A stretch of DNA of 64,000 nucleotides, taken from IMG/VR virus record IMGVR_UViG_3300028840_008157; one strand, written 5' to 3'. Source of the stretch: a virus. Lineage: Duplodnaviria; Heunggongvirae; Uroviricota; Caudoviricetes. The position numbers and the translations under genes were made by a program. Position 1 is the first letter of the stretch. Every line of letters starts with the position of its first letter. The notes under the pieces were generated by a model that saw only the letters and a program-made list of their open reading frames with translations, was not told where the DNA came from and made no database searches. This document shows positions 6,515 to 48,302 of this stretch, one piece after another.

Positions 6515-6517
6515 TCC

Positions 6518-10597: not shown

Positions 10598-10598
10598 C

Positions 10599-13983: not shown

Positions 13984-13992
13984 GCTCCGTCC

Positions 13993-16900: not shown

Positions 16901-19896
16901 ATGTACGGCTTCGAGAGCATGATCCTGTTCTCGAGCTCGTAGTAGTCCATCTGGAGGGAATCCCCGATGTCGAACAGTTTGGACATCTCGAACACGGAGA
17001 CGGCGCCCCCTCCGTTGCCCTCCGTGATGCTTCCCAGATAACCGTCGTAAAAGATGGGCGCAAACAATCCCCTGAATGGAGGCAGCGTCCAGGGGACGAA
17101 ATACTGCTCGAACAGCCCCTCCTCGGTCGTCGACCAGATCACGTTTCCGGGCGCCGCTCCCTGGTAGATGATCTGGAAGTTAGGCGCGGGTTCCACGGTC
17201 GCGAAGTACATGTGGCCGGCGGCGAGCGTGAGCTTGTCCTTGGCGAACGAGTATATCGTTACGTTCTCGCCGGGCTCGAACCGGAACGTCTCCTCGTATA
17301 TTTTCTCGGAGGTGACCTGTGCCGACGTGACCTGTTCGGGGTCGAGCCTGTAGTCCGGACCCCTCCATATCTTCAGCACGAAGTCGTACGTCCTGGATGA
17401 CGCCTCCGTCGCGCCGGACTTGGGGACGAGAAGCGCGCAAGGATCGTCGTCGCACCTGAGCCTGCCAAGGATGAACTTGTAGTCGCCCTCGAGGTCTTCC
17501 TTCTTGAACACGAGCCTCAACCATTCTCCGGACGGGTCGTTTACGAAGACGTTCGTGTATATAGTCCCCGTCGCGTCCCCCTCGAGAGTAAACCTCGTGG
17601 GGCCATCCTCGTACTTGACCTGGGACTCTGATACGACCCGGCTGATGTCGACGGGATCGATGAAACTCGGCGGCAACGGCTTCTTCGGCGCCGGGACGAG
17701 CAACTGGTTGGACGCCTGCGGCTCCGGAAAGACGCGAGGAGCGAACTTGGGATAGATCGGCATCATGAGATGCCTCATCCTGACCGACTTGTCTGGAGGG
17801 GACATGAACATGACGCCGACGTTCTCGAAGTCGTAACGCTGGCCGAAGTCGCCCGCGCCGACGATGGAATTCGTGGACGTGGCCACGTAGGATGGGTCCG
17901 AAGTGATCCCCAGCTCTGACGCCTGGGCGTCCCACGCCTCCCTGTCGGACGACCTGCTGACCCCGGTCCACAAGCCGGACATGCTCGTCACGGTAGTCGT
18001 TCCCGTCGTTACGACGGGCGTCGTCGACGGGGCACCGGGCGGCAACTGATCGGGCTGTTCTTCGTCGACGCCGTCCTCGTAATAGAGCGCGGATTGCGGG
18101 ACGACCTGCCGGGGGGTTGATGGGCTGCTCCATTCCAACATCGCGACTCCCCGGCCGCCGATGTCGTAGTAATCGACGCGGATGTCGTACTTCTGGCCCG
18201 CGACCATGGGGATGTCGACGGTCGATTTCTCCATGCGCTCGTGATCGAACCACATGTCGACGTAGAGCGTCCCGTTGACCCAGAGGCGCCCCCCGTCGTC
18301 CGTCGTCAGGTAAAACTTGTAGTTCTCCGTGTATTGAGCCTCGACCTGGCCGCTCCATCGGGCGGAAAACGATCCGCGTGCCCCGGGGAACGGCATCGAT
18401 CCGTTCCAAGTGAAGTTGACGACCGAATCGACCCTTGAAAGGCGCAGGTCATCGAAGACGGTCGACGGGGCTCCCGTCGACGGGGCTCGCGTCGGGCCGT
18501 CGTAGAAGTATTGCCCCAACAGGCCGTTGCCCGTCGTCAAGGCCGGATCGGGTTCCGATCCCGTTACCGAAGCCGGGTCTTCGTAATCGTAGGTGATGAC
18601 CTCCTCGGTCTCCGTCGCGCCGAGATCGAGGAACAACGAATGAGTCCCCGTGCGGGTCAGCAACGTCCCGGACGACTGCGACGTCGGGAGGGTCATCTTC
18701 GAGTCGCCGTAGGAGAAGTAGTCCCCCACGTCGCCCGTCGAGACGTAGTTGGTGATGCTTCCGTCCGATAGCACGACCCTGACCGCGCCGGGAGTCGTGC
18801 TGGGAATCTCGGCGAACCCCCCTTGGGCGTGCGCTCGCCTGTTGCGACAGCCCAGGCGCGGCCCGACGCTTTCGGGATATACCTGCGAATACCACAACTG
18901 GAAACGGGTCTCGTCACCGTAGGGCTTGCTCTGCCATACGACGTGGAAGCGACCCTGGCTGTCCGCGACGACGTCGGGGAACATGGACGTCTCGAGGTCG
19001 CAGGACAATCTGAACTCGCAGGCCATCGCCTCGCATTGGTCCTCGGCGGCGAGGACGGAGAAGACGAAGGCGACGTCGCTCTGCGCGGTTGGCTTGTAAC
19101 CGAGGTCGAGAACGTTCACGGCCAGGACGGACTGAACGGTGAACTCCTGCTCGGAGTTGGCCCCAGTCTCGATCCTGATCCTGGTACCGCTCTGTACGCC
19201 GAGACGATAGAAGTCCACGTCCGCGTCCGTGCTTAGGACCACGGTCTGGGAAGTGGCGTTGACGTCCAGGATGCCCTGCGCGAGCCTCGCCACGAGGTCC
19301 GATTCGACGGTCTCGGCGGCGTTGTCGTCGCTGGAGCATCTCTGGCTCAGGTCGATGATCCCGCTGGGCGAGGTTGGTCCTCCGGACGCCCCCGAGAACC
19401 CGGAACATTCAGAGACCACTGGCCGAAAGCTGACATCGGAAATCTCGTAAGCCTCTCGCACGGCGCGGGCGCTCATTTGCGACGGCAAGATGCGCCCGTA
19501 TATCTCCCACGTGCCGTCCCTGTTGTCGTGCCAGAAGACGCCACGACGACCTGCCGGCTCGAACGCGACGGCAGGATGCAACGAATTACAGGCATGGGTA
19601 CTGATGCGTTGTTCGTTCTGGCAGAAACCCGCAGCCGCGACCTCCGCTACCTGTTGCCCGACGGCTTCCTCGACGAGGTCGTCGGCCTCGGCCTGCGCGT
19701 CGGCGGCCGCCTCCTCATCCGGGGTGGACTCCTCCTGCGTCGTCGCGGGAAGCTCTCCGGAGAGCTCGAGCGTTTGGAGCGCCTGTATCGCGGACTCGGC
19801 CTCGCTGACGGCGTTCTCGAAGAGCGCGTCGTCTATGTCCGAGGCCCCCGCGAGGAAGCGGTCTATCGCGGCAATGTATTCGTCGAAGCTCGCCAT
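13993..19896 (-). CDS. Giant (1967 aa) multidomain protein: PA14 domain (approx nt 17950-18450), many beta-propeller W-x-D-x-R-x-G..IY blades, C-terminal lectin/fibre-like regions
   Basis: PA14 signature region SARWSGQVEAQYTENYKFYLTTDDGGRLWVNGTLYVDMW...QKYDIRVDYYD; repeated VVWHDNRFGDFEI, VVYHDYRLGQ, IVWYDDRHA, LTWHSNRTGSDEVY; ATG at 19894-19896. Confidence 0.8.
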   Translation of the reverse strand: MASFDEYIAAIDRFLAGASDIDDALFENAVSEAESAIQALQTLELSGELPATTQEESTPDEEAAADAQAEADDLVEEAVGQQVAEVAAAGFCQNEQRISTHACNSLHPAVAFEPAGRRGVFWHDNRDGTWEIYGRILPSQMSARAVREAYEISDVSFRPVVSECSGFSGASGGPTSPSGIIDLSQRCSSDDNAAETVESDLVARLAQGILDVNATSQTVVLSTDADVDFYRLGVQSGTRIRIETGANSEQEFTVQSVLAVNVLDLGYKPTAQSDVAFVFSVLAAEDQCEAMACEFRLSCDLETSMFPDVVADSQGRFHVVWQSKPYGDETRFQLWYSQVYPESVGPRLGCRNRRAHAQGGFAEIPSTTPGAVRVVLSDGSITNYVSTGDVGDYFSYGDSKMTLPTSQSSGTLLTRTGTHSLFLDLGATETEEVITYDYEDPASVTGSEPDPALTTGNGLLGQYFYDGPTRAPSTGAPSTVFDDLRLSRVDSVVNFTWNGSMPFPGARGSFSARWSGQVEAQYTENYKFYLTTDDGGRLWVNGTLYVDMWFDHERMEKSTVDIPMVAGQKYDIRVDYYDIGGRGVAMLEWSSPSTPRQVVPQSALYYEDGVDEEQPDQLPPGAPSTTPVVTTGTTTVTSMSGLWTGVSRSSDREAWDAQASELGITSDPSYVATSTNSIVGAGDFGQRYDFENVGVMFMSPPDKSVRMRHLMMPIYPKFAPRVFPEPQASNQLLVPAPKKPLPPSFIDPVDISRVVSESQVKYEDGPTRFTLEGDATGTIYTNVFVNDPSGEWLRLVFKKEDLEGDYKFILGRLRCDDDPCALLVPKSGATEASSRTYDFVLKIWRGPDYRLDPEQVTSAQVTSEKIYEETFRFEPGENVTIYSFAKDKLTLAAGHMYFATVEPAPNFQIIYQGAAPGNVIWSTTEEGLFEQYFVPWTLPPFRGLFAPIFYDGYLGSITEGNGGGAVSVFEMSKLFDIGDSLQMDYYELENRIMLSKPYIPPRNRPADKFWHGGYTFGGGYSAGQAIPKGKTIYRTGAANPYGLTSIVEFFEWPKIPSYGRWIYHTDDPSEIPIINDFLAARATYEEPPRGTCCWIPIADAPKQTRGTPGELGYSSAIYVLNKIVPATPTLKVSAQGIYSASYDFDSGGVSRNNLELLDGAGEKSPFSDLEKLQGNVPLCVIQESANGFVKGESYVGSHLPGQIVSVSSEGTVVTEPWVTLEDPGTVTGIDHLDGDLFAVTSTGNLWRIASDGSATKVIRAPVGLWGAMVVPNEDRYGGFAGKIISSGVISSDPTGTIYIFDVEAESYERYEVGTMMRAFEIVKANRNLYLLDSGNDALFVAAPENFTDIVGEIIGTSANGQIWLVTWSDDGPVVTEIGSVPTQDEAIKAEDLLFAPDLGATVTEIECNNQYRATLPFQLTTEGDNVNPRMDIDDFDNIWLTWHSNRTGSDEVYVARYDGDCATWSVPTMGGAETRVTNHGLRGASGKFPNVKVDAEGEAHLVWQSTETSDRKADVFYTFSTGGGQRFLNPIKVTDSPVEALMPDLAVNYVGNAERITVVWHDNRFGDFEIMSASKTGATWRSSGQRGGDLRLTAASGDSLFPRIVADKNQNLRVVYHDYRLGQAKPAIFMSSYVTSALEWYSSAQGGKDMLVSHGPSASLHPDIDVDLAGGIGIVWYDDRHALENPDYHEEVYGIYCLREGESIGRPHFQALDPPTYTESWASMSIQDCETGTDIEYTNVPDVCLRITAPGTMFWRAYNEDGILSPWQAFKPGPDLETMIVPWSLTCGNGLKTVCVQVQDEFNVSYPICDNVVLVAPESRFKIDFFKDEALTEPLPKYKSWPITTAGDVYIRITTDEPQVHPPTFDVITRGSHSVFNQEMIAVGESEDKAIGVNETDTEAGAIVEQQGVTGFEADAYRSFKGRFHVYRDDGVFHADGLSRVVVHGGNPCDANKNKSAEETGGNETPP

Positions 19897-24727: not shown

Positions 24728-24776
24728 ACAAAAAAGGAGCCCCCGGGGCTTCCCCGCCCCGGGGGCCGATGTTTTT
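24728..24776 (-). terminator. Intrinsic terminator: 11-bp GC stem (GCCCCCGGGGC/GCCCCGGGGGC) followed by T6 on minus strand (weaker T-tract on plus)
   Basis: Perfect inverted repeat read directly; minus-strand reading gives hairpin then CTCCTTTTTTG. Confidence 0.55.
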
Positions 24777-24828
24777 CAGAAGTATCAGTTCTGAGAGCGA
24801 TCCTCGCCCGCCATGCCGCCCCTTCTGA

Positions 24829-24935
24829 ATTTTAGGGCCGTACTCTGTCCCCTGAGTTACCCCCGCTCGAAACCTCCTCTCGCGGAGGGGGCTTCGAGCG
24901 GGGGACGGGATTCGAACCCGCGACCCGGCCTAATG
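24829..24935 (-). tRNA. tRNA-like gene in permuted order: 3' half (anticodon-stem 3' strand GGCCG, T-arm GCGGG-TTCGAAT-CCCGT, acceptor CCCCCGC) lies UPSTREAM of matching 5' half (acceptor GCGGGGG, D-arm ACTC-AGGGGACA-GAGT, anticodon-stem CGGCC, loop CTAAAAT) with 30-nt hairpin linker
   Basis: Hand-folded on minus strand: acceptor 7/7, anticodon stem 5/5, D-stem 4/4 complementarity between the two pieces; no co-linear full tRNA can be formed. Confidence 0.45.
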
Positions 24936-25055
24936 TCAGGAGCGCTGGCTTCTGCGGCGAGGAATAACCTCGTTTGCCTGAACTTGCCAGCTACAACCTA
25001 AGACTCAGCCAGAACTTTAGGGCGCCTGATGACCGTTGCCTCTGCCATTGGGCTA

Positions 25056-25098
25056 CCCCTATGTCAAGTATAGGGGGAGGGAATCGAACCCCCACTGT
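25056..25098 (-). other. Second tRNA 3'-end-like element: T-arm (GGGGG-TTCGATT-CCCTC) + acceptor-like CCCCTAT hairpinned to adjacent ATAGGGG; no co-linear 5' half or D/anticodon arms found
   Basis: Canonical GTTCGATTC T-loop on minus strand; 7-bp stem with 7-nt loop immediately 3' of it. Confidence 0.3.
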
Positions 25099-25172
25099 GG
25101 CGGCCGGACGCGTGAGCCTGAACCTGGCTGGTTATCCACGAACGAACCTGTCCAATCATCTATTCGTCGGGT

Positions 25173-25952
25173 TTAGCTCCGCCCGTGGATGTAGTCGAAT
25201 ATCTCCTTTCCGATCTGCTGGTCGCCGACCTCGACCTCGTTGGCCTGCATCCTGGCCCTCTTGGTCGCGGCGATGAGCCGGTCAATCTTTGCGATCCACT
25301 CGGCCTTGTCCTTCGGATGAGCCGAGCCCGAGAAGTTCGTATGGAGGAACTTGCCGATCTGGACGTCCTGCGTCTCCGCCTTGACCTGGGCGGGATGCTC
25401 CTTGGTCTCCGGCCTTAGGACGACGGGGATCGTCTTCTTGGCCGTCCTGTACTGCTCGACGGGGCCATGCTTGCGGTGTCCAGGCTTCCCCCCATCCTCC
25501 CAGTTCTTGGACATGTCGATCGTCGGGATCGCGTCGTAGTAGGCGCGAATCTCCCGCAGGCGCTTCTCCAGGGCCAGCAGGTACGTCGCGGGGACGTCCT
25601 TGGCCAGGGCGCGCTCGCCGACCACGAGGTCGGCCTTGGCCGACATGTTGCCCGCGTCCTTGACGAGCTCGAAGTCGAGCAGCTCGGCGATCTTTTTCTC
25701 TGTCCAGGCGAGTCGCTCCTCGACCGTGGTCACAACTTCCTTCGCCTCCGTCGGGAGCTGGTCTCCCGCGGCGTCCTTGGGCTGGTACTCGCGGTAGAAG
25801 CCCTCGAGAAGGTCGCGACTCTTGAAGACCTTCATGGTCTCCTTGGTAATCTTGTCGGCGGCCCCCTTGACCTCGTTCTCGGTGATGATGTGTTGGTAGA
25901 GTTTCCTGGCCATTTTTCCTTCCTCCTTTTTGTCTCCTGGATGCGAGATCAT
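25173..25952 (-). CDS. Hypothetical protein (259 aa), Lys/Glu-rich
   Basis: Clean ORF upstream (same strand) of tRNA-like elements and terminator. Confidence 0.6.
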   Translation of the reverse strand: MISHPGDKKEEGKMARKLYQHIITENEVKGAADKITKETMKVFKSRDLLEGFYREYQPKDAAGDQLPTEAKEVVTTVEERLAWTEKKIAELLDFELVKDAGNMSAKADLVVGERALAKDVPATYLLALEKRLREIRAYYDAIPTIDMSKNWEDGGKPGHRKHGPVEQYRTAKKTIPVVLRPETKEHPAQVKAETQDVQIGKFLHTNFSGSAHPKDKAEWIAKIDRLIAATKRARMQANEVEVGDQQIGKEIFDYIHGRS

Positions 25953-26030
25953 ACGTGCCGCCCACCGCTCGTCAAGAAAAAAATTCGATCCGATTTCTCT
26001 CGTATAACCGAGCCATCTTCGGGGCGGCGG

Positions 26031-26680: not shown

Positions 26681-27577
26681 ATGGACTTGATCATACCGGT
26701 CTTCAACAAGCCGGAATATACCCAGGCCTGCCTCGATTCACTGTTGGTAACCGACCCGGGAACGAACTTGCGACCCATCATCGTCGACAACGGATCGCGA
26801 ACGAAGACGCGCCGCCTTCTTGAACGATGGATCAAGGATGCCCGAGAACGACCCTTCTTGTCGGATCCCAGGATCGTCGCCAACAAGGAGAACTTCGGCT
26901 TCGCCGGCGCCCTGAATAGGGCCATCAACGAGTCTCGCGACGGCGAGCTGGCGATGATCATGCATAACGACTGCATCCCCTTCAAGGGATGGGCCAGGGA
27001 AATGCTCGATTGCCTCGAGCTCCACGAGGATGACGACGTCATCGCGGTCGCGCCTCGGACGAATTACGCGAACGAGATGCGTCCGTGCCTCCCCGGCGTC
27101 AGGGAACGATTCGAGGGGCTCAAGTTCCCCAACAAGGACAGGGTCGCCGTCGATCAGATCGACGGGCTCATGCGGGAGTTGTATCCGGAGGACCAGGACG
27201 CTTTCCTGACGAGGCTCCGTGATGACCCTCGAACGTCGTACCTCCCAGAGATATGCTCCTTTTGTCTTCTCGTTCGCAAGCAAGCCCTCCGCGACGTCCC
27301 GTTCGACGAGGACTTTTGGCCGAGGTTCTTCGAGGACAAGCTCTGGTTCCTCCACCACGAGAGGCAGGGCTGCGCTTGCATGCTGTCGAATTGGTCTTAT
27401 GTGCATCACTTCGGGAACATTACCAGCGATGGCCCGGGGTTCTCGATGCCGGACTTGTTCGCGATGAACGAGAAGAAATTCAAGGAGAAGGTTCGCGTCC
27501 TCAACGAGCGTCCCTTCGGCCAAAAGGAGACGAAGCCCGATGTTGCGGTTCATAACGACATGCATGGGGCGCCTTGA
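26681..27577 (+). CDS. GT2-family glycosyltransferase (GT-A fold)
   Basis: LIIPVFNKPEYTQACLDS...IVDNGS signature; 17-bp divergent gap from GT32 gene. Confidence 0.8.
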   Translation: MDLIIPVFNKPEYTQACLDSLLVTDPGTNLRPIIVDNGSRTKTRRLLERWIKDARERPFLSDPRIVANKENFGFAGALNRAINESRDGELAMIMHNDCIPFKGWAREMLDCLELHEDDDVIAVAPRTNYANEMRPCLPGVRERFEGLKFPNKDRVAVDQIDGLMRELYPEDQDAFLTRLRDDPRTSYLPEICSFCLLVRKQALRDVPFDEDFWPRFFEDKLWFLHHERQGCACMLSNWSYVHHFGNITSDGPGFSMPDLFAMNEKKFKEKVRVLNERPFGQKETKPDVAVHNDMHGAP

Positions 27578-30500
27578 ACACGCCAAGAAGGCCGTCCGGA
27601 GCCTGCTCCCCCAACCCGACAGCGGGATCGTGTTCGTGGACTGGGGTTGTCCGGATAATTCCGGAAATTGGATGATCAACCTCCAGCGCGAACAACCCGA
27701 CAAGTCGATCATCGTGCTCCAGGCTCCGTGGGCCAAGAATTTCAACCTCTCCGGAGCCCGCAACCTGGGGGCGCGAAGCGGGGCCCTCGCCAAGGACGAC
27801 GTCCTTTGCTTCGTCGATTGCGACATCGTCGCGTCCGCCAGCTTGTCGGCGGAAATATCGAGGAGGATCGAGCCGGGGGTTTTCCTGACCTTCCAGCCAC
27901 GCGGACTTCCGACGGACGGTACATGCGTCGTCCGCCGAGGGGACTTCGAGCGCGTCGGGGGGTACGACGAGAACTTCAGGAGCTATGGGCACGAGGACGC
28001 CGATTTCTACGACGCGCTTCGTTTCGCCGGCCTCAAGGAGAGGCACTTGCCCGTTTCCCTGGTCGAGCACGTCGATCACGAGCCCGACAAGGAACGCTAC
28101 GAGATGAGGCTTAACTCCTGCGAGAACCAGATGTACCGCAGGACCAAGTGGGAACTCGCCCGAAGGCTTGGCAAGCCGCTGTCCGGCGAGGAGCGAACGT
28201 CCCTGTATGGCTCGCTCGTCCAGCGTTATCAACGGCTAGATCGACCAGAACCGGACGTCCCCCCGGCGTCGCCCAAGGTTTCTTTCTGCACCGCCTGCAA
28301 GGGAAGGGAATGGCAGTTACGGGCCACGTACAAGAAGAACATCGAGGACAATCTCTGCTACGGCAACGTCGAGTTCGTCCTGCTTAATTATGACTCCCCA
28401 GGCGACATCGATGAACTCGTCAGGGACGAGCTCAAGGAGTACATTGACCGAGGCGTCCTCAAGTACTACGCGCTCAAGACTCCCGACAACGCCACCCCGT
28501 GGCATTGCTCCGTGGCGAAAAACGTCACCCACAGGCTAGCCATGGGCGACATCGTATGTAACCTGGACGCGGACAACATGACGAAGCCGAACTTCGCCAC
28601 GCTGCTCGCCAAGACATGCAGGCCGGGCGTGGCCCTCCGGGCGCAGGGGCAGAAGGGCGCCGGCGGCATGATCGCCATGTGGCGCAAGGACTTCCTGTCC
28701 GTCGGCGGATACGACGAGAGCTTCCTGGCCGTGGGACACCAGGACAACGACATGGAGGATCGCCTATGGGCTGCCGGGCTGGAAGTCGCCCTTTTCCGGT
28801 CGATGCCCAACACGGTGATACCCAACACCAATGTAGACCGGATGAGGTTCGCCGGGGGCGGTCAGTACTTCGCGATGTCCGAGGAGAACAGGCGTCGCAA
28901 GGAAAAGAACAAGCAACTCGGACGCGTCGCGGTCAACGAGTTCGGATTCAAGCCCGTCGAGCTCCTCTTGAACTTCGACAAGGAGGTGACGCTGGACGCC
29001 TCCAATCCGGACCTCGTTACGACGATCTCCGACGTGAACCCCCTCTACAAGAGCTTCGCGTGGTCCAAACCATTCGACGAGGAACCGTCGGGGTGCTGGT
29101 ACGTGGTACACAAGGATTGGCGCGATCCGCTCTTCCTGAAGCCCGACGGAGATTTCTACCGGCCCTCCAAGGACGACGGGAAGTGGAGCCACGTCGGCAA
29201 CCGCCTGCACGTGTTATGGGACAACTGGGCCCCCGAGACGCTCGGCGTGAGCGGTGACGACGTCATCAGGGGTCGCAACATGCGCGCCATGCGCCTCGGA
29301 AACTGGAAGCCGGGGGGCTCCCCTCGGCGGCTGCTTGGTCCAGAGGCCTGGAAGGACGTGTTCGAGCCATGGCGCGGCAAGAAGGCCGCCTACTTGCAGA
29401 TGTACGGGAACGTCGGGGACCAGATGATCTATGACGCCACGTTGCAACTGATGTCCCATTACGGCATCAGCTACGAGCGCTGGCACGACGACTGCGACGT
29501 CGACGTCCTGATGATCACCGGGGGAGGCAACCTCGGCGAGGAGGGCCAGGCCAAGAGGCGCAAGAAGGTCATCGACTGGGCGATCAAGAAGGGCGTCAAG
29601 TGCGTGATCCTGCCGCAAACGATGATCCGGAAGGGCAACGAGACGTTCGCCAAGGAAGTCGACGTCTACGCCAGGGAGGACGCCACGCGCGCCATCGTCG
29701 ACGGATCGCGCTTCGCCCCGGACATGGCGCTCGGGTACCGGGCCGACCTGGAGCTCCCGGAACCGGTGTTCGACAAGGGCTACTTCTGCTCGAGGAGAAC
29801 CCATCGGTTCGTCCACGCCTGCGACCCGACGAGGCTATGCGATACGCCCCAGGGGTACGTCGCCCTGGCGGCGCTCTTCAAGGAGATCGTGACGAACCGC
29901 CTCCACTTCGCCATCGCCGGCCTCATCGCGGGACGCAAGGTCACGCTGTTCCCGAACGAGTACCACAAGAACAAGGCGGTCTGGGAGGCTTCCCTGAGGC
30001 ATCTCGGCTGCGAATGGCGCGACGACATGGTCCCGGAGGAGGAGATCCCGGAAGACGACGTCGTGGCCCAGCTATCTTTCTTCATCTGCTACGGCAAGAG
30101 GACGCCCCTCGCCAATCTGACCGACCCTATCGACGTCTACGTATTCGGGACCCAACGAAGCGGAAACCACGGAATCATCAAGTGGCTCCTCGGTCAATTC
30201 AAGCACCTGAACCCGGACGACAACCTGCGCAAGGAGGGCATTTTCAGGAACGACTGGAACAACGGCGGCCACAACGAGAACTTCGTCCCGGACGACAGCC
30301 GTATCCCCAGGAAGGACAACGTCAGGCTCATCAGCTACGAGAACGACTGGAACGTCCTCGATCCGGAGAGGCGCGACATGCTCCTGCGGGACGACCCGCA
30401 TGTCCGGAAGAGGTGCTTCGTGGTCCTGAGAAGCCCCCTCAACTGGTTCGCGTCGACGACGCGCTGGTCCAAGCGAACCCCTAAGGACAAGATCGTCGAG

Positions 30501-30824
30501 CTGATGATCCGGTACTTCGAGGACTTCTACCTGGAGCCGAAAGATCCTCGGGTGATCCCGATCCTGTTCGATCGATGGTTCGTGGACAAGGAATACAGGA
30601 TGAAGATCGCCAGGGAGATCGTCGACGATCCCAATGACAGGGCCTTCGGTACGATGGACGCCTTCAGCACGCCCAGCTCTTTCGACGGGTGGGGTCATCG
30701 ATTCGACGCGAAAGCGCTCAAGGTCCTCGAGCGGTACAAGCAACTCTCCAAGGAGGACATGGAAGCCCTCCTCGCCAACCCGCGGATCATGAGGATACTC
30801 GAGGCGCTGGGGGATGTCCCGTAG
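27540..30824 (+). CDS. Giant multidomain glycan-modifying enzyme (1094 aa): two GT-A modules (DCD/DAD, GGYDE..GHED.D), polysaccharide pyruvyltransferase-like domain (NRLHFAIAGLIAGRKV), C-terminal sulfotransferase-like P-loop region
   Basis: Motifs FITTCMGRLEH..VDWGCP..CFVDCDIVAS..VGGYDENFRSYGHEDADF; ISFCTACKGREWQL..NLDADN; pyruvyl-transferase C-motif; GTQRSGNHG. Confidence 0.8.
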   Translation: MLRFITTCMGRLEHAKKAVRSLLPQPDSGIVFVDWGCPDNSGNWMINLQREQPDKSIIVLQAPWAKNFNLSGARNLGARSGALAKDDVLCFVDCDIVASASLSAEISRRIEPGVFLTFQPRGLPTDGTCVVRRGDFERVGGYDENFRSYGHEDADFYDALRFAGLKERHLPVSLVEHVDHEPDKERYEMRLNSCENQMYRRTKWELARRLGKPLSGEERTSLYGSLVQRYQRLDRPEPDVPPASPKVSFCTACKGREWQLRATYKKNIEDNLCYGNVEFVLLNYDSPGDIDELVRDELKEYIDRGVLKYYALKTPDNATPWHCSVAKNVTHRLAMGDIVCNLDADNMTKPNFATLLAKTCRPGVALRAQGQKGAGGMIAMWRKDFLSVGGYDESFLAVGHQDNDMEDRLWAAGLEVALFRSMPNTVIPNTNVDRMRFAGGGQYFAMSEENRRRKEKNKQLGRVAVNEFGFKPVELLLNFDKEVTLDASNPDLVTTISDVNPLYKSFAWSKPFDEEPSGCWYVVHKDWRDPLFLKPDGDFYRPSKDDGKWSHVGNRLHVLWDNWAPETLGVSGDDVIRGRNMRAMRLGNWKPGGSPRRLLGPEAWKDVFEPWRGKKAAYLQMYGNVGDQMIYDATLQLMSHYGISYERWHDDCDVDVLMITGGGNLGEEGQAKRRKKVIDWAIKKGVKCVILPQTMIRKGNETFAKEVDVYAREDATRAIVDGSRFAPDMALGYRADLELPEPVFDKGYFCSRRTHRFVHACDPTRLCDTPQGYVALAALFKEIVTNRLHFAIAGLIAGRKVTLFPNEYHKNKAVWEASLRHLGCEWRDDMVPEEEIPEDDVVAQLSFFICYGKRTPLANLTDPIDVYVFGTQRSGNHGIIKWLLGQFKHLNPDDNLRKEGIFRNDWNNGGHNENFVPDDSRIPRKDNVRLISYENDWNVLDPERRDMLLRDDPHVRKRCFVVLRSPLNWFASTTRWSKRTPKDKIVELMIRYFEDFYLEPKDPRVIPILFDRWFVDKEYRMKIAREIVDDPNDRAFGTMDAFSTPSSFDGWGHRFDAKALKVLERYKQLSKEDMEALLANPRIMRILEALGDVP

Positions 30825-31470
30825 GATATCGTTCTGCACGACCTGCAAGGGGAGGCTCTGGCAGCTACGCCAGACGTACCTGCTCAACGTCGAGACGGCG
30901 ATCGAGGAGCATGACGACGTCGAGTTCGTCCTGGTGAACTACATGTCCCCTGACGAGTTGGACGACTGGGTATCGACGAGGCTCTCCCGCGTCGAGGGGC
31001 TCGTCTACGTCCGCCTCCGGGAACCCCTCCCCTGGCACGTCTGCAAGGCCAAGAACATGGGTCACCGGGCGACGACCGGCGACGTCATCGTCAACCTCGA
31101 CGCCGACAACTTCCTCGGCGAGGGGTACGTCTCCAGGGTCGTCGCGGAGGTCGGACCCGGGAACGCCTCGCGCCTGGTCGGGCACCCGTCCGTGGGCGGC
31201 CGGATCGCCGTCCATAGGGACGACTTCTTCGCCGTCGGCGGCTACGACGAGTCGCTGGCCCCCATGGGCCACGAGGACAACGACCTGGAGGCGAGGCTCG
31301 TCCTTAACGGGGTCAAGGTGGCCCATTGGCCACGCGGCCCGTTGCCGGTCGACAACACGGACGAGCAGCGCGCCGAGTTCTGCGACGCGAATTTCCCCGA
31401 ATGCGCCAGGCGAAGCGAGGAGATCAGCGCCGGGAACCTGAGGGCCGGGAGGATCGTCGCCAACTCATGA
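30814..31470 (+). CDS. GT-A glycosyltransferase (type-II module, CTTCKGRLWQL / DADN / GGYDESLAPMGHED)
   Basis: Near-identical module architecture to second module of 32788..36339. Confidence 0.75.
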   Translation: MSRRISFCTTCKGRLWQLRQTYLLNVETAIEEHDDVEFVLVNYMSPDELDDWVSTRLSRVEGLVYVRLREPLPWHVCKAKNMGHRATTGDVIVNLDADNFLGEGYVSRVVAEVGPGNASRLVGHPSVGGRIAVHRDDFFAVGGYDESLAPMGHEDNDLEARLVLNGVKVAHWPRGPLPVDNTDEQRAEFCDANFPECARRSEEISAGNLRAGRIVANS

Positions 31471-32060
31471 GGTTCGTCTTCGTCCACATCCAGAAGACCG
31501 GCGGAGACAGCGTTCGCTCGGCCCTGGGGCTTCCCGTCACCGGGAGGACCAAGCACTTCTCGGCCAGCGAGCACCTCGGAAGGATCGGGGTCGAGGCTTG
31601 GGGGAGCTCCTTCAGCTTCTCGTTCGTCAGGAACCCGTGGGACCGCCTCGTCTCATGGTGGGCGATGATGAGGAGAATCCGGCGTGAGAACCCGGAGGGC
31701 CGCGGACTCAACCCGTTCGCCAAGTACATCCTCGACAACTCCGATACGTTCGAGGAGTTCCTGTCCTGCGACGAGGTCATGGACTTGCCGGACGGCGCCC
31801 GATCGCTCTGGAGGAACCAATACGATTACCTGACCGGTCCCGACGGATCCATGATCGTGAGCTTCGTCGGGCGGTTCGAGCGCATCGAGTCGGACTTCGA
31901 AAAGGTCGCCAGGATCATCGGCCGCGACGCGAAGGTTCCCCACGTCAACAAGTCCCATCACGATCATTACTCCTCGTATTACACGCCCACGCTGGCGAGG
32001 ATCGTCGGCGAGCGCTTCGCGAGGGACGTCGAGGCGTTCGGGTACGGCTTCGAGGGTTAG
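31467..32060 (+). CDS. Sulfotransferase-family protein
   Basis: 5'-PSB-like motif FVFVHIQKTGGDS; start set at internal ATG forming ATGA overlap with upstream stop (track ORF begins earlier with Arg-rich junk). Confidence 0.65.
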   Translation: MRFVFVHIQKTGGDSVRSALGLPVTGRTKHFSASEHLGRIGVEAWGSSFSFSFVRNPWDRLVSWWAMMRRIRRENPEGRGLNPFAKYILDNSDTFEEFLSCDEVMDLPDGARSLWRNQYDYLTGPDGSMIVSFVGRFERIESDFEKVARIIGRDAKVPHVNKSHHDHYSSYYTPTLARIVGERFARDVEAFGYGFEG

Positions 32061-32064
32061 GGAA

Positions 32065-32784
32065 TTGTACACGATGGAGGAGAACTGGGCGCTGGTCGAG
32101 GAAGCCAGGCGCAGGGTTTCCGGGCGCCGACCGCGCGAGCTCGGGATCCTGTTCCTCTATCACAAGACGTGCGACGTAACCGAGAGGAACCTGGAGTCGC
32201 TCGAGCGATCGGGTCATCTCGTGATCCCGATCTCGATGGAGAGGGGCGCGTACTTCTCTTCCGGTTACTGGCTCGAGCAGACCCCGTTCTGGGGCGACCT
32301 CACGGGGTACGACCCGCGGAGGTGCTGGTATAATATGGACGCCTGCTATTACGAGTACTATCGCAGGCGCAACGAGAACTGCAAGCGATGGCTCCTCGCG
32401 GAATGGGACGTCCTGTGCAAGGGACGCGTCGAGGACTTCTACGGGAACCTCTGGGACGAGGACTTCGTCGCCGCCACGATCCATCCCCCTGAGGGTAGCC
32501 GCTGGCATTGGTTCAAGGAGGTCGAATCGCTGCCTTACTACATGCGCGGACGCGCCTTCGGGGCGTCGCCCCTCGCCGGCGTCCTGTTGTCGGACGACTG
32601 CATGGAACGGATCGTCCGCGAGTCGTGGCGCATCGACGCCTTCTGCGAGCTGAGGATCGCCACGCTCGCCAGGTTCGCGGGGCTCCTGCCGATTCGCAAT
32701 CCCAGGGCGCGGGGAAAGCTGAAATGGAGGCCGAGCCCGGTGGTCGACGGCGACGGCCTCTGGCATCCGGTCAAGGAAATGTGA
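32065..32784 (+). CDS. Hypothetical protein (239 aa) within glycan cluster
   Basis: Clean ORF, Trp/Tyr-rich; no motif recognised. Confidence 0.5.
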   Translation: MYTMEENWALVEEARRRVSGRRPRELGILFLYHKTCDVTERNLESLERSGHLVIPISMERGAYFSSGYWLEQTPFWGDLTGYDPRRCWYNMDACYYEYYRRRNENCKRWLLAEWDVLCKGRVEDFYGNLWDEDFVAATIHPPEGSRWHWFKEVESLPYYMRGRAFGASPLAGVLLSDDCMERIVRESWRIDAFCELRIATLARFAGLLPIRNPRARGKLKWRPSPVVDGDGLWHPVKEM

Positions 32785-32787
32785 CCC

Positions 32788-35700
32788 ATGTTCCTCGTCG
32801 CCAAGCGTGAGATCACGGAGCACAAGGGCGACCCGGAGGAGATGAAGAAGCTCCTTCTCCGGGACGACTACCTTTACGCCTGCTTCCTGTACTCCGACCC
32901 GCTCAGCCCCTTGTTCGTCCACGTCAAGCCCGGGAAGGCCAGGCTGATGGCCGACTGGGAGAGCAACGACTTCTGGTTCATGGAAGTCCCGACGTCCTTC
33001 CTGTACCCGTCCGAGACGAGCCTGAGGATGGGCCATGGGGCTTCCATGGCCCACTTCTCCAGGCTTGGATGGATCGCCGAGGATGACGCCTGGATCGAGA
33101 ACCGGATGCCCGTCCGTCAATACGAGCAGAGGATCCAAGGGCTCCTCGGTCATTTCGAAGAGAAAAGGTTGTTGTTCTTCGGCTCCCTGGACGGACACGA
33201 CGAGAGGGGCGAGACGAGGAGGTCCCAAGTCAAGCTCCTCGAGACGGCCGGATTCACCATCGTGACGAAGTCCTTCTTCCCCGAACCCACGAGGAAGTTG
33301 ATCGACGTCCTCGAGGACGAGAGGTGCTGCGCCGTCCTGGGGATGGACGGACTGAGCGTGGGCTGCATGAGGGACCATGAGGTCGCGTTGTCGGCCGTCC
33401 CCTACCTGAGGGTCACGAGGACGATCCAGAACGTTCCCTTCGTCAACCCGACTGGCCGCGCCTGGGTCGCGACGGCGCAGGGAGCGGACGTCGGTCGCGC
33501 CTTCGCGGAGATGAAGGCGTCGGCCTCGTGCGGGACAATGTCCGAGCGACTTCTCGACGCCAGGGACGTGTCCTTGGCGATGAGGGACAATTGGCGCTTC
33601 TTCCAATGCCTCGACGCCTGCTGCTTCGATTCCGATTCGGCCCTCCGGGCGGCCGAGGAGATCGCGATTCGAGACGCGTCGATTCCCGAGGCGATCGAGG
33701 GGGCGCTTCCCGGGAAAGTCCTGGAAGCCGAGAAGGTGGATACCTTCATGGTGTTCGATTCCGACGGGTCTCTCCTGCCGGGGAGATTCAAGATCGGGGA
33801 AGTCCATGGCGCCTCGGAGGGGCGGCCGGCCCTCCTCCAATCGCTGGTGGGCGAGAAGGGCCTCCCCAAAAACCCCTTGATATCGTTCGTGGTGCCTTGC
33901 ATGGGAAGGCTCGAGCATCTGCAACGGGCGCTCCCGAGGTTGTCCCAGCAGCCCAATTCAGAGGTCGTCATCGTCGACTGGTCGTGCCCGGAGTATTGCG
34001 GAGACTGGGCCGACAAGTTCCCCCGGACGCGCGTCGTCAGGGTCCCGGGCCAACGGACGTTCAACCTGTCCAAGGCGAGGAACGCCGGCGCGGGGGAGGC
34101 TCGCGGGGAGTGGCTTTGCTTCCTTGACTGCGACATGATCGTGTCGCCCAAGTTCGCGACGGAGCTATCGAAGGGATTCAAGGACAAGTCCTACGTCAGC
34201 TTCGGAACGCTCGGGTCGGCCGGCCATTCGGGGATGACGACGTGTCGCAAGGCCGATTGGGAGGCCGTCGGGGGCTATGACGGTCGCATGGAGGGCTGGG
34301 GGTACGAGGACACCGACTTCAAGCATCGCCTCAGGCTCAGGGGGCTCTCGGGCGTCGTGGTCGACATGTCGCTCGCCAAGCACATAGATCACGACAACGA
34401 GGCGAGGACCAGGTTTTACGACGATGACCAGGCGACGAGCCACGGCAGGAACGAAGCCCTTTCCCAACGGAAGATCAAGGATCGCAAGAAGATCGTCGGC
34501 CTATGGAAGGCCACGCATTCCTCGTGGAAGGGCTTCCTGTTCTTCGACGAGGACGGCTCGTTCTCCCGTCAGGCGCACGGAGATCACGGAAGCTGGCTGC
34601 TCGAGGATGGCGAGCTGGTCCTCAGGTGGGCCAAGTGGCCCCCCGAAAGGTTGAAGGAGAAGGAACCGGGCCAATACGCCGGGACGTTCATGACCCTGTC
34701 AAAGGAGGAGCCTCTCAAAAGGAAGGACGACGAGAGCCTCCAATACGTCGGCGATTGGACCGTTAGGCATGACGACTGGAAGGACACGATTAGCCTCCTT
34801 CGGGACGGAACATTCCATAGGTCGAGCGTCAAGTGGGAAGGGGGCACGTGGGAGTCGCTGGGGGGCCGCGTCCTGTTGAAGTGGGACCGATGGGGGACGG
34901 AAACGGCCAACTACGAGGACGGAAGCCTCGTCGGCGACCGGTTCGTCGCCGTCAGGCCGTGGCGCCTGGAACACCCCAAGATATCCCTTTGCACGACCTG
35001 CAAGGGGAGGCTGTGGCAATTATCACGGACGTTCCTTGGAAACGTAAGGAGAGCCCTGGAGGAGTACGACAACGTCGAGTTCGTCCTGATGGACTACGGC
35101 TCCCAGGACGGGCTCGAGGATTGGGCGCGGACGAAGCTCCGGAAGTACGTCGACGAGGGGATCGTGAAGTACTGCAAGCTCGTCGACGATCTTCCGTGGC
35201 ATGCGTCCAAGTCCAGGAATCTGGCCCATCGGATGGCGAGCGGGGTCATCCTTTGCAACGTGGACGCCGACAACTTCCTCGGCGAGGGATTCGTCAAGAA
35301 ACTATCCTTCGAAGTCGGACCTAAGAAGGCCGTCAGGCTGGCTGGCGACGCGTCCGTGGGGGGACGCATCGCCGTCCACAAGGACGACTTCTTCGCCGTC
35401 GGCGGTTACCTCGAGTCGTTGGCCCCCATGGGCCACCTCGACAACGAGTTCGAGCGCAGGCTCGGGAGCAACGGCGTCCGCGTGATCCACTGGCCGAGCG
35501 GGCCGTTGCCGGTCGAGAACACGGACGCCCAGCGGGCCGAGTTCTGCGACAGGTCGTACGCCGAGTGCATGGCCCACAGCAAAAAGGTCATGGACCGGAA
35601 CCCCGTGGTCAACGAGCGGTTCCAGCGCGCCACGGTCCGCGTGAACTGGTCTAGAACCGTCGAGCTGGGGCCGGAACGCGGGGACGTTAGAAAGAAACTG

Positions 35701-46381: not shown

Positions 46382-46412
46382 GTCCTTTCATCATACGACG
46401 TATGATTCCAGA

Positions 46413-48252: not shown

Positions 48253-48302
48253 GGATCGGCTCCTTTCGACGTCATCCTAGCAACGCGCCGTTCGATTTCC
48301 AA

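What the first reader, a model, noticed from the sequence alone, without database searches (positions are those of the whole stretch)
24829..24935. tRNA gene whose halves are in permuted (3'-half-first) order
On the minus strand, a perfect T-arm (GCGGG-TTCGAAT-CCCGT), acceptor 3' strand CCCCCGC and anticodon-stem 3' strand GGCCG come first. Thirty nucleotides later lie the matching acceptor 5' strand GCGGGGG, a well-formed D-arm (ACTC/AGGGGACA/GAGT), anticodon-stem 5' strand CGGCC and a C-T-NNN-A-N loop (CTAAAAT). All three inter-half helices match: 7/7, 5/5, plus the intra-half D-stem. No co-linear tRNA can be assembled. The acceptor strands plus linker also fold as a 12-bp hairpin (CCCCCGCTCGAA/TTCGAGCGGGGG). 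Circularly permuted tRNA genes are known only from red/green algae and a few archaea, where the BHB splicing endonuclease resolves them. They are not known in bacteria or phages. Alternatives are a recombination scar at an integration hot spot, or a structured regulatory RNA upstream of the terminator at 24728-24776.
Basis: seen in the sequence. Interest (0 to 1): 0.75.

Follow-up and report, generated by a model that had tools for sequence, protein, structure and literature searches.

The report
Two-headed tRNA-mimic RNA beside DUF7873
The "scrambled tRNA gene" is real, but it is one of two tRNA-shaped heads of a ~400-nt non-coding RNA that follows one uncharacterised protein gene (DUF7873) in hundreds of bacteria and phages; it resembles bacterial Y RNAs but lacks their usual protein partner.

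Summary
The sequence features are as described: on the minus strand, closing-stem strand, T-arm, acceptor 3' strand, 31-nt hairpin, acceptor 5' strand, D-arm, closing-stem strand. It is not a permuted tRNA gene. There is no BHB junction and no closable anticodon arm. A second module of the same kind lies 100 nt upstream (25105-25031). Both lie between a DUF7873 gene (PF25283) and a strong terminator.

A covariance model built only from other loci hits exactly these two sites in the window (E about 5e-17 and 5e-9). Of 160 independent DUF7873 loci (80 reference genomes, 80 viral contigs), 149 carry at least one such module within 700 nt 3' of the stop codon on the same strand, and at least 90 carry two. 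All four cultured phages examined have modules in the same position. Helices covary strongly. tRNA tertiary signatures are kept (U8, A14, 15:48 Levitt pair in 230/239). One third of modules encode N-CCA directly after the acceptor strand.

The architecture matches YrlA, but the Rfam score is below threshold, the Ro60-binding motif is absent, and no Ro60/TROVE gene is nearby. DUF7873 has no informative structural or family relative, and I found no paper on it.

Best reading: a Y-RNA-like ribonucleoprotein cassette with a different protein partner. New variant of a known kind.

The parts
25173..25952 (-). DUF7873 (PF25283) protein gene. The probable true start is the second ATG at 25913, giving 246 aa. 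It is the constant partner of the RNA.
   Evidence: Pfam E = 2.2e-71. An identical 246-aa protein, P0001, sits on a 547-kb contig. It is the only coding element conserved across 160 loci.
25948..25975 (-). Sigma-70-like promoter candidate upstream of the DUF7873 gene (TTGACG-16-TATGAT). No promoter-like site lies between the gene and the RNA.
   Evidence: Consensus scan, 10 of 12 matches. Inference only.
25106..25172 (-). Leader between the stop codon and module 1. It contains CCAGCCAGGTTCAGGCTCA (25131-25113), the 5' strand of a long-range helix that encloses module 1.
   Evidence: RNAalifold consensus pairs leader with linker. Motif CCAGCCAAGYTCAAGCT is conserved in relatives. The exact partner in the window is ambiguous.
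25031..25105 (-). Module 1, a tRNA-like head, type 1:
- closing stem GGCCG (25105-25101) with CGGTC (25035-25031)
- T-arm 25093-25077
- acceptor 3' strand CCCCTAT, 25076-25070
- 7-nt loop ACTTGAC, 25069-25063
- acceptor 5' strand ATAGGGG, 25062-25056
- U8-A9
- D-arm GCCC/AATGGCA/GAGGC, 25053-25038
   Evidence: Model R1, 66.8 bits, E about 5e-17. Weak YrlA hit, 18 bits. Type-1 features (bulged D-arm GCCC..GAGGC, discriminator A) are shared by 57 and 70 of 84 first modules.
24963..25030 (-). Linker between the modules. It contains the 3' strand(s) of the helix enclosing module 1 (CTGGCTGA 25012-25005 and/or AGCTGG 24992-24987) and the repeated motif CTGGCAAGTTCAGGC.
   Evidence: The motif is conserved in L006, L008, L009, L010 and L013.
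24931..24962 (-). 5' strand of the stalk under module 2: basal helix CCTCGCCGC...GCGCTCC, then the A/U-rich internal loop TGACATTA.
   Evidence: MFE folds. The basal helix changes sequence but stays paired in relatives (L008 CACGAGC/GCTCGTG, L009 CAGGGA/TCCCTG).
24836..24930 (-).
- closing stem GGCCG (24930-24926) with CGGCC (24840-24836)
- variable region GGTC
- T-arm 24921-24905
- acceptor 3' strand 24904-24898
- 31-nt extension hairpin 24897-24867
- acceptor 5' strand 24866-24860
- U8-A9
- D-arm 24857-24842
- A26
   Evidence: R1 38 bits, E about 5e-9. Rfam YrlA 27.6 bits, E = 0.0019, full-length match. G15:C48 Levitt pair present.
24802..24835 (-). 3' strand of the module-2 stalk: internal-loop side CTAAAATTCAGAA, then GGGGCGGC...GGCGGGCGAGG.
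24777..24793 (-). Small hairpin CAGAA-CTGATAC-TTCTG between the stalk and the terminator. Also present in L006.
24730..24767 (-). Rho-independent terminator: a 12-bp G+C-rich stem, a 6-nt loop and a T-tract. It ends the gene-plus-RNA unit.
   Evidence: Equivalent terminators follow the RNA in L006, L008, L009 and L010.

Best explanation
The flagged element is the second of two tRNA-shaped modules in a ~400-nt non-coding RNA (about 25172-24730, minus strand). The RNA is transcribed with, or just after, the DUF7873 gene and ends at a strong terminator.

Each module keeps the tRNA 'upper body' and elbow: a T-arm, a 7-bp acceptor helix, a D-arm, U8, A14 and the 15:48 Levitt pair. Its acceptor helix is closed by a loop or hairpin. 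Its 'anticodon stem' is the entry and exit point, and it continues into an internal loop and a long basal helix. This is the Y-RNA/YrlA design.

Proposed mechanism (inferred): the RNA is a stable tRNA mimic that forms a ribonucleoprotein with its co-encoded DUF7873 protein. The stalks or internal loops hold the protein. The two non-equivalent tRNA-like heads engage tRNA-recognising factors such as RNase P, 3'-end trimming and CCA-adding enzymes, TruB/Dus-type modifiers, or tRNA-targeting nucleases.

In the many relatives whose acceptor loop begins with N-CCA, the loop is probably cut by RNase P and trimmed to a CCA end, giving a nicked, two-piece tRNA-like head as shown experimentally for M. 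smegmatis YrlA. The window's own modules lack an encoded CCA, and module 2 has a long helical extension, so they may stay closed.

Shown here: the structure, its conservation, the linkage to DUF7873 and the tRNA tertiary signatures. Inferred: co-transcription, protein binding, processing and biological role.
For: 1. Specificity. Model R1, built without window sequences, finds only 25032-25105(-) and 24836-24921(-) in the window, plus the tmRNA T-arm.
2. Linkage.
   - 149 of 160 DUF7873 loci have at least one module within 700 nt 3' of the stop on the same strand (median gap 114 nt), and at least 90 have two.
   - In the genome loci, 130 of 132 hits are in that position.
   - The pattern holds from 69% down to about 35% protein identity, in metagenomic relatives, in Glycomyces salinus and in four cultured phages: Racecar, Ronaldo, RHph_TM30 and phiRSL1.
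3. No other conserved neighbour; no TROVE.
4. Covariation. 96.3% of cells are paired against 68.8% in shuffles and 41-53% in slid controls. There are 521 double-sided changes against 151 expected. Unsupervised RNAalifold recovers both modules.
5. tRNA tertiary signature.
   - U8 in 237 of 239 modules and A14 in 237 of 239.
   - Levitt-compatible 15:48 in 230 of 239 (158 expected).
6. Closing stem of at least 4 bp in 67% against 11% in controls, with covarying basal helices.
7. N-CCA exactly after the 7-bp acceptor 3' strand in 78 of 239 modules, against 1-4 at any other offset.
8. The first and second modules are distinct, separately conserved types.
9. The best Rfam match everywhere is YrlA.
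10. [quoted passage not shown]
11. Stand-alone extra modules in phage tRNA islands argue that the RNA can act outside the DUF7873 3' region.
Against: - There is no expression, processing or binding data.
- The invariant position directly 3' of one gene is equally what a cis-acting 3'-UTR element would show.
- DUF7873 has no recognisable RNA-binding or enzymatic fold, so protein-RNA contact is pure inference.
- The covariation alignment was fitted to the model, which inflates pairing percentages somewhat.
- The window modules lack an encoded CCA, so the processing part of the model may not apply to this locus.
- A Ro60 gene could lie elsewhere on the 547-kb replicon or in the host.
Confidence: 0.6

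Rival explanations
1. Cis-acting 3'-UTR element. The tRNA-like modules are processing and stability signals for the DUF7873 mRNA. They would be cut by RNase P or tRNase Z, as with MALAT1/mascRNA or tRNA punctuation, leaving the mRNA with a protective structured 3' end. The released RNA would have no function of its own.
For: - Invariant position and strand, immediately 3' of the gene, with a median gap of 114 nt.
- No promoter-like site between gene and RNA, and a single terminator after the RNA.
- 7-bp acceptor stems and encoded N-CCA suggest tRNA-type cleavage.
Against: - Two different module types, each with a long covarying stalk, are conserved across phyla. That is far more structure than a cleavage signal needs.
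- Full tRNA tertiary core is retained.
- Strong extra modules exist away from any DUF7873 gene in L100 and L139 and as a single module in L004.
- Many modules, including window module 2, have long helical acceptor extensions that should be poor RNase P substrates.
Confidence: 0.2
2. Genuine Ro60-dependent YrlA. The RNA is an ordinary Y RNA that binds a Ro60/Rsr protein encoded elsewhere on the replicon or by the host, and DUF7873 is merely a neighbour.
For: - YrlA is the top Rfam hit in every locus.
- The architecture is the same as the solved YrlA tRNA-like domain (10.1101/312249).
- YrlA-like RNAs occur in phages (PMC4201824).
Against: - Scores are 18-39 bits against a gathering threshold of 69.
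- The Ro60-binding motif GNCGAAN0-1G is absent from the window RNA and not enriched in the family: 10.5% against 5.9% in controls.
- No TROVE gene was found in the window ORFs scanned or as a conserved neighbour within about 5 kb in 160 loci. Published YrlAs lie within 4 kb of Ro60 on the same strand (PMC4201824).
- The one constant neighbour is DUF7873.
Confidence: 0.1
3. True circularly permuted tRNA gene. Leader and trailer are removed at a BHB motif, the ends are ligated into a circle, and RNase P and tRNase Z open the acceptor loop to give a functional tRNA, possibly tRNA-Phe with anticodon AAA.
For: - The order is correct and all stems are complementary.
- In the window and its closest relatives the six nucleotides after the closing stem (CUAAAA, UUGAAA, AUAAAA) look like positions 32-37 of an anticodon loop.
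- Encoded CCA is seen in relatives.
Against: - No BHB geometry: 2 of 193 modules, none in the window.
- Closing stem exactly 5 bp in only 20%.
- 'U33' is U in 33% (all).
- The strands continue into a long paired stalk.
- There are two tandem modules, always tied to one protein gene, in organisms with full tRNA sets.
- Bacteria and phages are not known to have the splicing endonuclease (established knowledge), and none was seen in the window.
Confidence: 0.02
4. Two-piece (permuted) tmRNA-like gene or its degenerate remnant.
For: - The T-arm-acceptor-(CCA)-spacer-acceptor order is that of permuted ssrA genes.
- Weak hits to beta_tmRNA and cyano_tmRNA models, 16-22 bits.
Against: - ARAGORN, which detects permuted tmRNAs, reports none here.
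- Rfam scores are far below the thresholds of 70-84.
- A complete D-arm and closing stem are present, unlike tmRNA.
- No tag reading frame or pseudoknots were found.
- The window already has a standard tmRNA at 52321-52681.
Confidence: 0.02
5. Recombination scar: leftover tRNA halves at an integration hot spot.
For: tRNA 3' ends are common attachment sites. In phages the cassette sits within tRNA arrays.
Against: - Compensatory substitutions occur in every helix.
- The same bipartite design is conserved from Actinomycetota to huge-phage contigs.
- Junctions between adjacent ordinary tRNAs score 22 bits or less, against 38-67 here.
Confidence: 0.01

Closest known systems
YrlA (Y RNA-like A; Rfam RF02553), the tRNA-mimicking Y RNA bound by bacterial Ro60/Rsr (Chen et al. 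2014, PMC4201824; Wang et al. 2018, 10.1101/312249)
   Same: - A tRNA-like domain with a T-arm, a closed 'acceptor' stem-loop and a D-arm.
- U8/A9 linker and a covarying Levitt pair.
- Entered through the 'anticodon' stem, which continues into a stalk formed by the flanking 5' and 3' sequences.
- Often two RNAs in tandem.
- Encoded next to its protein partner on the same strand.
- Also present in phages.
   Different: - Below the Rfam threshold (18-39 bits against 69).
- No GNCGAAN0-1G Ro60-binding motif.
- No TROVE gene nearby; the constant partner gene is DUF7873.
- Both RNAs carry full tRNA-like heads of two distinct types within one transcript.
- 7-bp acceptor stems are the rule, and a third of modules encode N-CCA.
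Mycobacterium smegmatis YrlA (two-piece, RNase P-cleaved, CCA-tailed; PMC4201824)
   Same: A 7-bp acceptor stem closed by a loop. Cleavage by RNase P at the acceptor 5' end and a CCA tail on the upstream half would give exactly the nicked head predicted for the CCA-encoding modules of this family.
   Different: It is bound by Rsr and encoded upstream of rsr. Processing in the DUF7873 family is untested. The window modules lack an encoded CCA.
Circularly permuted tRNA genes of red and green algae and Thermofilum pendens (Soma 2014, PMC3978253)
   Same: The gene order is 3' half, intervening sequence, 5' half. The acceptor 'loop' is expected to be opened by RNase P and tRNase Z. Some encode CCA.
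   Different: Those have a BHB junction and a circular intermediate, and yield a complete aminoacylated tRNA. Here there is no BHB, no closable anticodon loop and no fixed 5-bp anticodon stem.
Two-piece tmRNA from permuted ssrA genes (alpha- and beta-proteobacteria, cyanobacteria; Rfam RF01849-RF01851)
   Same: Permuted order of the tRNA-like domain, with the acceptor 3' strand (CCA) upstream of the acceptor 5' strand. A processed intervening segment. The two pieces are held together by base pairing.
   Different: tmRNA has no D-stem and carries a tag reading frame, pseudoknots and an SmpB partner. None of these is present here.
tRNA-like 3'-end processing elements (MALAT1/MEN-beta mascRNA) and viral 3' tRNA-like structures (cited in 10.1101/312249)
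   Same: tRNA mimicry downstream of another transcript, recognised by RNase P and the CCA-adding enzyme.
   Different: Those are co-linear, with the 5' acceptor strand first. They are single, eukaryotic or from RNA viruses, and have no dedicated protein gene.
[quoted passage not shown]
   Same: A precedent for tRNA-like ncRNAs paired with a protein other than Ro60.
   Different: b7a-tRNA is said to resemble an authentic co-linear tRNA and to accompany RtcB. Here there is no RtcB linkage. The window's SPFH/Band-7 gene (60441-62078) is 35 kb away.

Membership tests
Circularly permuted tRNA gene | 3' half, intervening sequence, then 5' half, with complementary acceptor strands | tested here: met
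   CCCCCGC ... 31 nt ... GCGGGGG, paired 7 of 7. T-arm and D-arm are in permuted order.
Circularly permuted tRNA gene | Leader and trailer form a bulge-helix-bulge (3-4-3) motif at the junction (PMC3978253) | tested here: not met
   strict BHB geometry in 2 of 193 modules; none in either window module.
Circularly permuted tRNA gene | Joining the ends restores a canonical anticodon arm (5-bp stem, 7-nt loop with U33 and a purine at 37) | tested here: not met
   the stem is exactly 5 bp in 20%, and position 33 is U in 33%; the strands continue into an internal loop plus a long basal helix.
Circularly permuted tRNA gene | tRNA-splicing endonuclease and ligase available in the organism | tested here: inconclusive
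   No such Pfam domain in the 30 window ORFs scanned. The rest of the 547-kb replicon and the host were not seen.
Circularly permuted tRNA gene | Circular intermediate and mature aminoacylated tRNA | not testable with these tools
   Needs RT-PCR across the junction, or small-RNA and circular-RNA sequencing.
YrlA (Rfam RF02553; Ro60-bound Y RNA) | tRNA-like domain in the order T-arm, closed acceptor stem-loop, D-arm, on a stalk made by the 5' and 3' flanks | tested here: met
YrlA (Rfam RF02553; Ro60-bound Y RNA) | tRNA tertiary nucleotides, including a covarying Levitt pair | tested here: met
   230 of 239 compatible (158 expected). U8 in 237 and A14 in 237 of 239.
YrlA (Rfam RF02553; Ro60-bound Y RNA) | Reaches the Rfam gathering score (69 bits) | tested here: not met
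   Window 27.6 and 18 bits. Relatives 26-39 bits.
YrlA (Rfam RF02553; Ro60-bound Y RNA) | GNCGAAN0-1G Ro60-binding motif near the 5' end (PMC4201824) | tested here: not met
   none in the window RNA; 10.5% of modules against 5.9% of control segments.
YrlA (Rfam RF02553; Ro60-bound Y RNA) | Encoded within about 4 kb of a Ro60/TROVE gene on the same strand (PMC4201824) | tested here: not met
   No TROVE in the window ORFs scanned. No conserved neighbour other than DUF7873 in 160 loci with flanks of up to about 5 kb.
YrlA (Rfam RF02553; Ro60-bound Y RNA) | Physical binding by Ro60/Rsr | not testable with these tools
   Needs immunoprecipitation.
Two-piece (permuted) tmRNA | Tag reading frame with resume codon, pseudoknots, and detection by ARAGORN or the Rfam tmRNA models | tested here: not met
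   ARAGORN reports only the standard tmRNA at 52321-52681. beta_tmRNA and cyano_tmRNA hits are 16-17 bits against thresholds of 70-84.
DUF7873-associated bipartite tRNA-like RNA (family defined here) | Lies within a few hundred nt 3' of a DUF7873 gene on the same strand and matches model R1 | tested here: met
   Gene 25173-25952(-). Modules at 25105-25031 and 24930-24836. Family-wide, 149 of 160 loci.
DUF7873-associated bipartite tRNA-like RNA (family defined here) | A first module of type 1 (bulged D-arm GCCC..GAGGC, discriminator A) followed by a second module of type 2 (regular D-stem, discriminator U or G) | tested here: met
   for the family. for the window: M1 GCCC/GAGGC with loop ACTTGAC; M2 ACTC/GAGT followed by U.

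The most novel reading that the evidence does not exclude
DUF7873 and its bipartite tRNA-mimic RNA form a previously unrecognised ribonucleoprotein class that is independent of Ro60 and spread through many bacterial phyla and many phages, typically inside phage tRNA islands.

Its two non-equivalent tRNA-like heads would be matured by the tRNA-processing machinery into nicked, CCA-ended 'split tRNAs' lacking an anticodon. These could be charged, could act as decoys or sensors for tRNA-targeting nucleases and tRNA-modifying enzymes, or could recruit such enzymes to the protein.
Probability: 0.4. Interest if true: 0.8.

Novelty: new variant of a known kind. Interest (0 to 1): 0.65.

Why it matters

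What replaces it is arguably more useful. It is a very widespread gene-plus-RNA cassette:
- at least 589 reference-genome loci
- 314 viral contigs
- 75 cultured phage genomes
- 2,733 protein clusters at 50% identity

As far as the searchable literature, Rfam 15, Pfam, NCBIfam and PADLOC show, it has never been described.

It extends the Y-RNA/YrlA idea, a tRNA-shaped RNA tethered to a protein, to a second and unrelated protein partner. It also offers tractable systems for experiment: Gordonia, Arthrobacter, Rhizobium, Ralstonia and Klebsiella phages, and Streptomyces and Glycomyces strains.

It has a practical side too. These ~400-nt regions are currently left blank or annotated as tiny hypothetical ORFs, as in phage Ronaldo gp124/125. 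They will also confuse any search for split or permuted tRNAs.

Tried and rejected
- **tRNA and tmRNA finders, Rfam at gathering thresholds.** Nothing at the locus.
- **Nucleotide similarity to cultured phages.** No match.
- **Single-protein scan of viral contigs with DUF7873.** No confirmed hit; the profile was needed.
- **Exact-pattern scans for the T-arm plus acceptor.** These mostly returned ordinary phage tRNA-Gly and tRNA-Pro genes, with one true extra module in L004.
- **PHROGs, PADLOC and NCBIfam for DUF7873.** No hits.
- **Exhaustive profile search for domain fusions.** In the 150 best hits listed, nearly all are ~245-aa single-domain proteins, with no informative fusion.
- **Search for a Ro60/TROVE, RtcB or other conserved neighbour.** None.
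- **Literature.** There is no paper on DUF7873, and no description of this cassette. The Sim et al. 2020 review and Burroughs & Aravind 2016 could not be read, so prior mention there cannot be excluded.
- **Rejected readings.** Permuted tRNA gene, tmRNA-like gene, recombination scar, and chance juxtaposition of two tRNA fragments, since adjacent ordinary tRNAs score 22 bits or less.
Full report
**1. The observation**

On the minus strand the window reads, 5' to 3':
- GGCCG, 24930-24926
- GGTC
- T-arm GCGGG/TTCGAAT/CCCGT
- acceptor 3' strand CCCCCGC
- a 31-nt hairpin
- acceptor 5' strand GCGGGGG
- TA
- D-arm ACTC/AGGGGACA/GAGT
- A
- CGGCC, 24840-24836

The T-stem has one G-U pair. The spacer is 31 nt. 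CTAAAAT is not a loop.

ARAGORN finds no tRNA here; its only call in the window is a tmRNA at 52321-52681(-). Rfam at gathering thresholds also reports only that tmRNA. The MFE fold of 24800-24975(-) gives the T-arm, the closed and extended acceptor helix, the D-arm and a long stalk, with z = -4.9 against shuffles.

**2. A second module and the nearest Rfam family**

A permissive Rfam scan gives YrlA (RF02553) as the best hit. It is a full-length match at 24813-24945(-), 27.6 bits, E = 0.0019, against a gathering score of 69. A second weak YrlA hit lies at 25038-25094(-).

That second site is another module in the same permuted order:
- closing stem GGCCG/CGGTC
- T-arm GGGGG/TTCGATT/CCCTC
- acceptor CCCCTAT/ATAGGGG closed by the 7-nt loop ACTTGAC
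- D-arm GCCC/AATGGCA/GAGGC

**3. Context**

Both modules lie between a gene for a DUF7873 protein (PF25283, E = 2e-71) and a strong terminator at 24767-24730. The only promoter-like site is upstream of the gene.

The window is part of a very large replicon: an identical protein is on a 547-kb contig. The replicon encodes giant PA14/Ig/dockerin proteins, many glycosyltransferases and its own tmRNA. It gives no PHROG hits. No TROVE/Ro60, RtcB or splicing-endonuclease domain was found in the 30 ORFs scanned.

**4. Relatives**

Contigs encoding DUF7873 homologues of 69%, 56%, 52%, 48%, 45% and 39% identity all carry the tRNA-like module(s) followed by a stem-loop directly after the gene: two modules in most, one in the AT-rich L014. 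ARAGORN calls no tRNA at that position in those checked.

The same holds for the sequenced actinobacterium Glycomyces salinus at 35% identity.

Compensatory changes are visible by eye, for example acceptor stems CCCCTAT/ATAGGGG, CCCTCGC/GCGAGGG, CCTCCGC/GCGGAGG, CCCCCAC/GTGGGGG and CCCCGTCAC/GTGACGGGG.

A protein profile found at least 589 loci in reference genomes (Streptomyces, Glycomyces, Actinomadura, Nocardia, Acidobacteriota, Myxococcota, Chloroflexota, Bacteroidota, Planctomycetota and others) and 314 in viral contigs. It also found 75 cultured phage genomes.

**5. Statistical tests**

A covariance model (R1) was built from 37 modules of other loci.
- *In the window:* it hits only the two sites, at 66.8 bits (E about 5e-17) and 38 bits (E about 5e-9), plus the tmRNA T-arm.
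- *In 80 genome loci:* 130 of 132 hits lie just 3' of the gene on its strand.
- *Overall:* 149 of 160 loci have at least one module within 700 nt of the stop codon (median gap 114 nt), and at least 90 have two.
- *In cultured phages:* Racecar, Ronaldo and phiRSL1 have both modules and RHph_TM30 has one, in the unannotated gap or under tiny 'hypothetical' ORFs. Junctions of ordinary adjacent tRNAs score 22 bits or less.

Covariation:
- 96.3% of cells are paired, against 68.8% in shuffles and 41-53% in slid controls.
- There are 521 double-sided changes, against 151 expected.
- 15 of 16 pairs show compensatory change.
- Caveat: this alignment was fitted to the model. However, structure-blind RNAalifold on six full-length RNAs recovers both modules, a leader-linker helix around module 1 and the terminator.

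**6. It is tRNA-shaped**

In 239 unique parsed modules:
- U8 is present in 237, and A14 in 237.
- GG is present in the D-loop of 219.
- The 15:48 Levitt pair is G:C or A:U in 230, against 158 expected if independent. G15 goes with C48 in 45 of 46 cases, and A15 with U48 in 185 of 189.

A closing helix of at least 4 bp is present in 67%, against 11% in controls. Beyond it lie an A/U-rich internal loop and a basal helix whose sequence differs between relatives.

**7. It is not a tRNA gene**

- The closing helix is exactly 5 bp in only 20% of modules.
- 'U33' is U in 33%.
- Strict BHB geometry occurs in 2 of 193, and in neither window module (criteria from PMC3978253).
- The two strands continue into a paired stalk.
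- There are always two modules, of two distinct conserved types: the first has a bulged GCCC..GAGGC D-arm and discriminator A; the second has a regular D-stem and discriminator U or G.

**8. A hint of processing**

In 78 of 239 modules, CCA lies exactly one nucleotide after the 7-bp acceptor 3' strand. At any other offset the count is 1-4.

M. smegmatis YrlA has a 7-bp acceptor stem. Published work shows it is cut by RNase P and gains a CCA tail (PMC4201824). The window's own modules lack an encoded CCA.

**9. Relation to YrlA**

The design is that of YrlA, which is described as resembling circularly permuted tRNAs with closed acceptor stems (10.1101/312249). But the defining features tied to Ro60 fail:
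- The score is below the Rfam threshold.
- The GNCGAAN0-1G motif is absent from the window and not enriched in the family.
- No TROVE gene is near.

The only conserved neighbour is DUF7873.

**10. The protein**

**11. Conclusion**

The flagged element is module 2 of a bipartite, Y-RNA-like tRNA mimic coupled to DUF7873.

I propose an RNP in which the stalks bind the protein and the tRNA-like heads engage tRNA-recognising enzymes, with RNase P and CCA maturation in CCA-encoding members. This part is inferred.

The main rival is a cis-acting 3'-UTR processing element. Stand-alone modules elsewhere in phage tRNA islands and the elaborate, two-type architecture argue against it but do not exclude it.

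Novelty: a new variant of a known kind, subject to literature I could not read.

Noticed in passing
window 52321-52681 (-): A one-piece tmRNA with tag peptide ANAKNILRLDRSAVALAA (110 bits), on a replicon that otherwise looks like a huge phage or giant extrachromosomal element (547-kb contig, no PHROG hits among 10 proteins).
   Followed up: partly
window 3212-19896 (-): A run of giant minus-strand ORFs: 1967 aa with a PA14 domain, 1100 aa with Rha78A-type Ig and dockerin domains, and 810 aa with an Ig domain. They could be tail-fibre or adhesin-like proteins.
   Followed up: no
window 27540-36339, 46326-49526: An unusually dense set of glycosyltransferase genes (including 1094-aa and 1183-aa multi-domain GT2/GT7C/pyruvyl-transferase proteins) flanks the cassette. 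A sulfotransferase lies nearby on the matching Logan contig.
   Followed up: no
window 43192-45626 (-): An ADP-ribosylglycohydrolase gene (E = 1e-64) lies directly next to a radical-SAM protein gene.
   Followed up: no
window 60441-62078 (-): An SPFH/Band-7 protein. Band-7 proteins have been linked to tRNA-like ncRNAs ('b7a-tRNA') in RNA-repair loci, according to 10.1101/312249. No tRNA or strong R1 hit lies next to this one.
   Followed up: partly
window 25913-25952 (-): The DUF7873 ORF probably starts at the second ATG (25913). The identical database protein P0001 is 246 aa, and homologues align from there.
   Followed up: partly
window 24777-24793 (-): A small conserved hairpin, CAGAA-N7-TTCTG, lies between the module-2 stalk and the terminator. 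It is also present in L006. Its role is unknown.
   Followed up: no
window 24829-24835 (-) and relatives L006, L008, L009: The segment after the module-2 closing stem (CUAAAAU, UUGAAAC, AUAAAAA, AUAAAGU) mimics positions 32-38 of a tRNA-Phe-like anticodon loop, but only in the window's close clade. It could be a relic of a tRNA origin or a conserved internal-loop motif.
   Followed up: partly
window 25063-25069 (-) and relatives: The 7-nt loop closing the module-1 acceptor stem has the conserved consensus NYUUGAY in the window's clade (ACUUGAC, UUUUGAU, UCUUGAU). This suggests a specific contact site rather than a cleavage spacer.
   Followed up: no
L004 223-303 (IMG/VR UViG_3300005563_000031, 106-kb viral contig): A single module whose T-arm plus acceptor 3' strand is identical over 24 nt to window module 2, but with a 13-nt loop and a different D-arm. 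Only 1.4 kb is held, so the presence of DUF7873 upstream is unknown.
   Followed up: partly
L100 1174-1248, 1329-1413, 7131-7202, 7593-7667; L139 7678-7752: Additional strong modules (up to 62 bits) inside phage tRNA islands. They overlap no ARAGORN tRNA and are not preceded by a DUF7873 paralogue. The module also exists as a stand-alone unit.
   Followed up: partly
L177 (Gordonia phage Ronaldo NC_048028.1) 3247-3716: The annotated 'hypothetical proteins' gp124 and gp125 lie in the RNA region, and gp125 overlaps module 1 (3510-3587). These are probably spurious ORF calls.
   Followed up: partly
L139 3488-3885; L128, L143, L162, L172, L175: In viral contigs the DUF7873 cassette sits in arrays of 17-36 tRNA genes per 10 kb, and in L139 (6 tRNA genes) next to a phage tmRNA. 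It appears to belong to the phage 'translation island'.
   Followed up: partly
L055 (Ktedonobacterales MAG) 6203-7006: Four modules (two pairs) lie downstream of a single DUF7873 gene, starting about 900 nt after it. This looks like a duplicated RNA unit.
   Followed up: no
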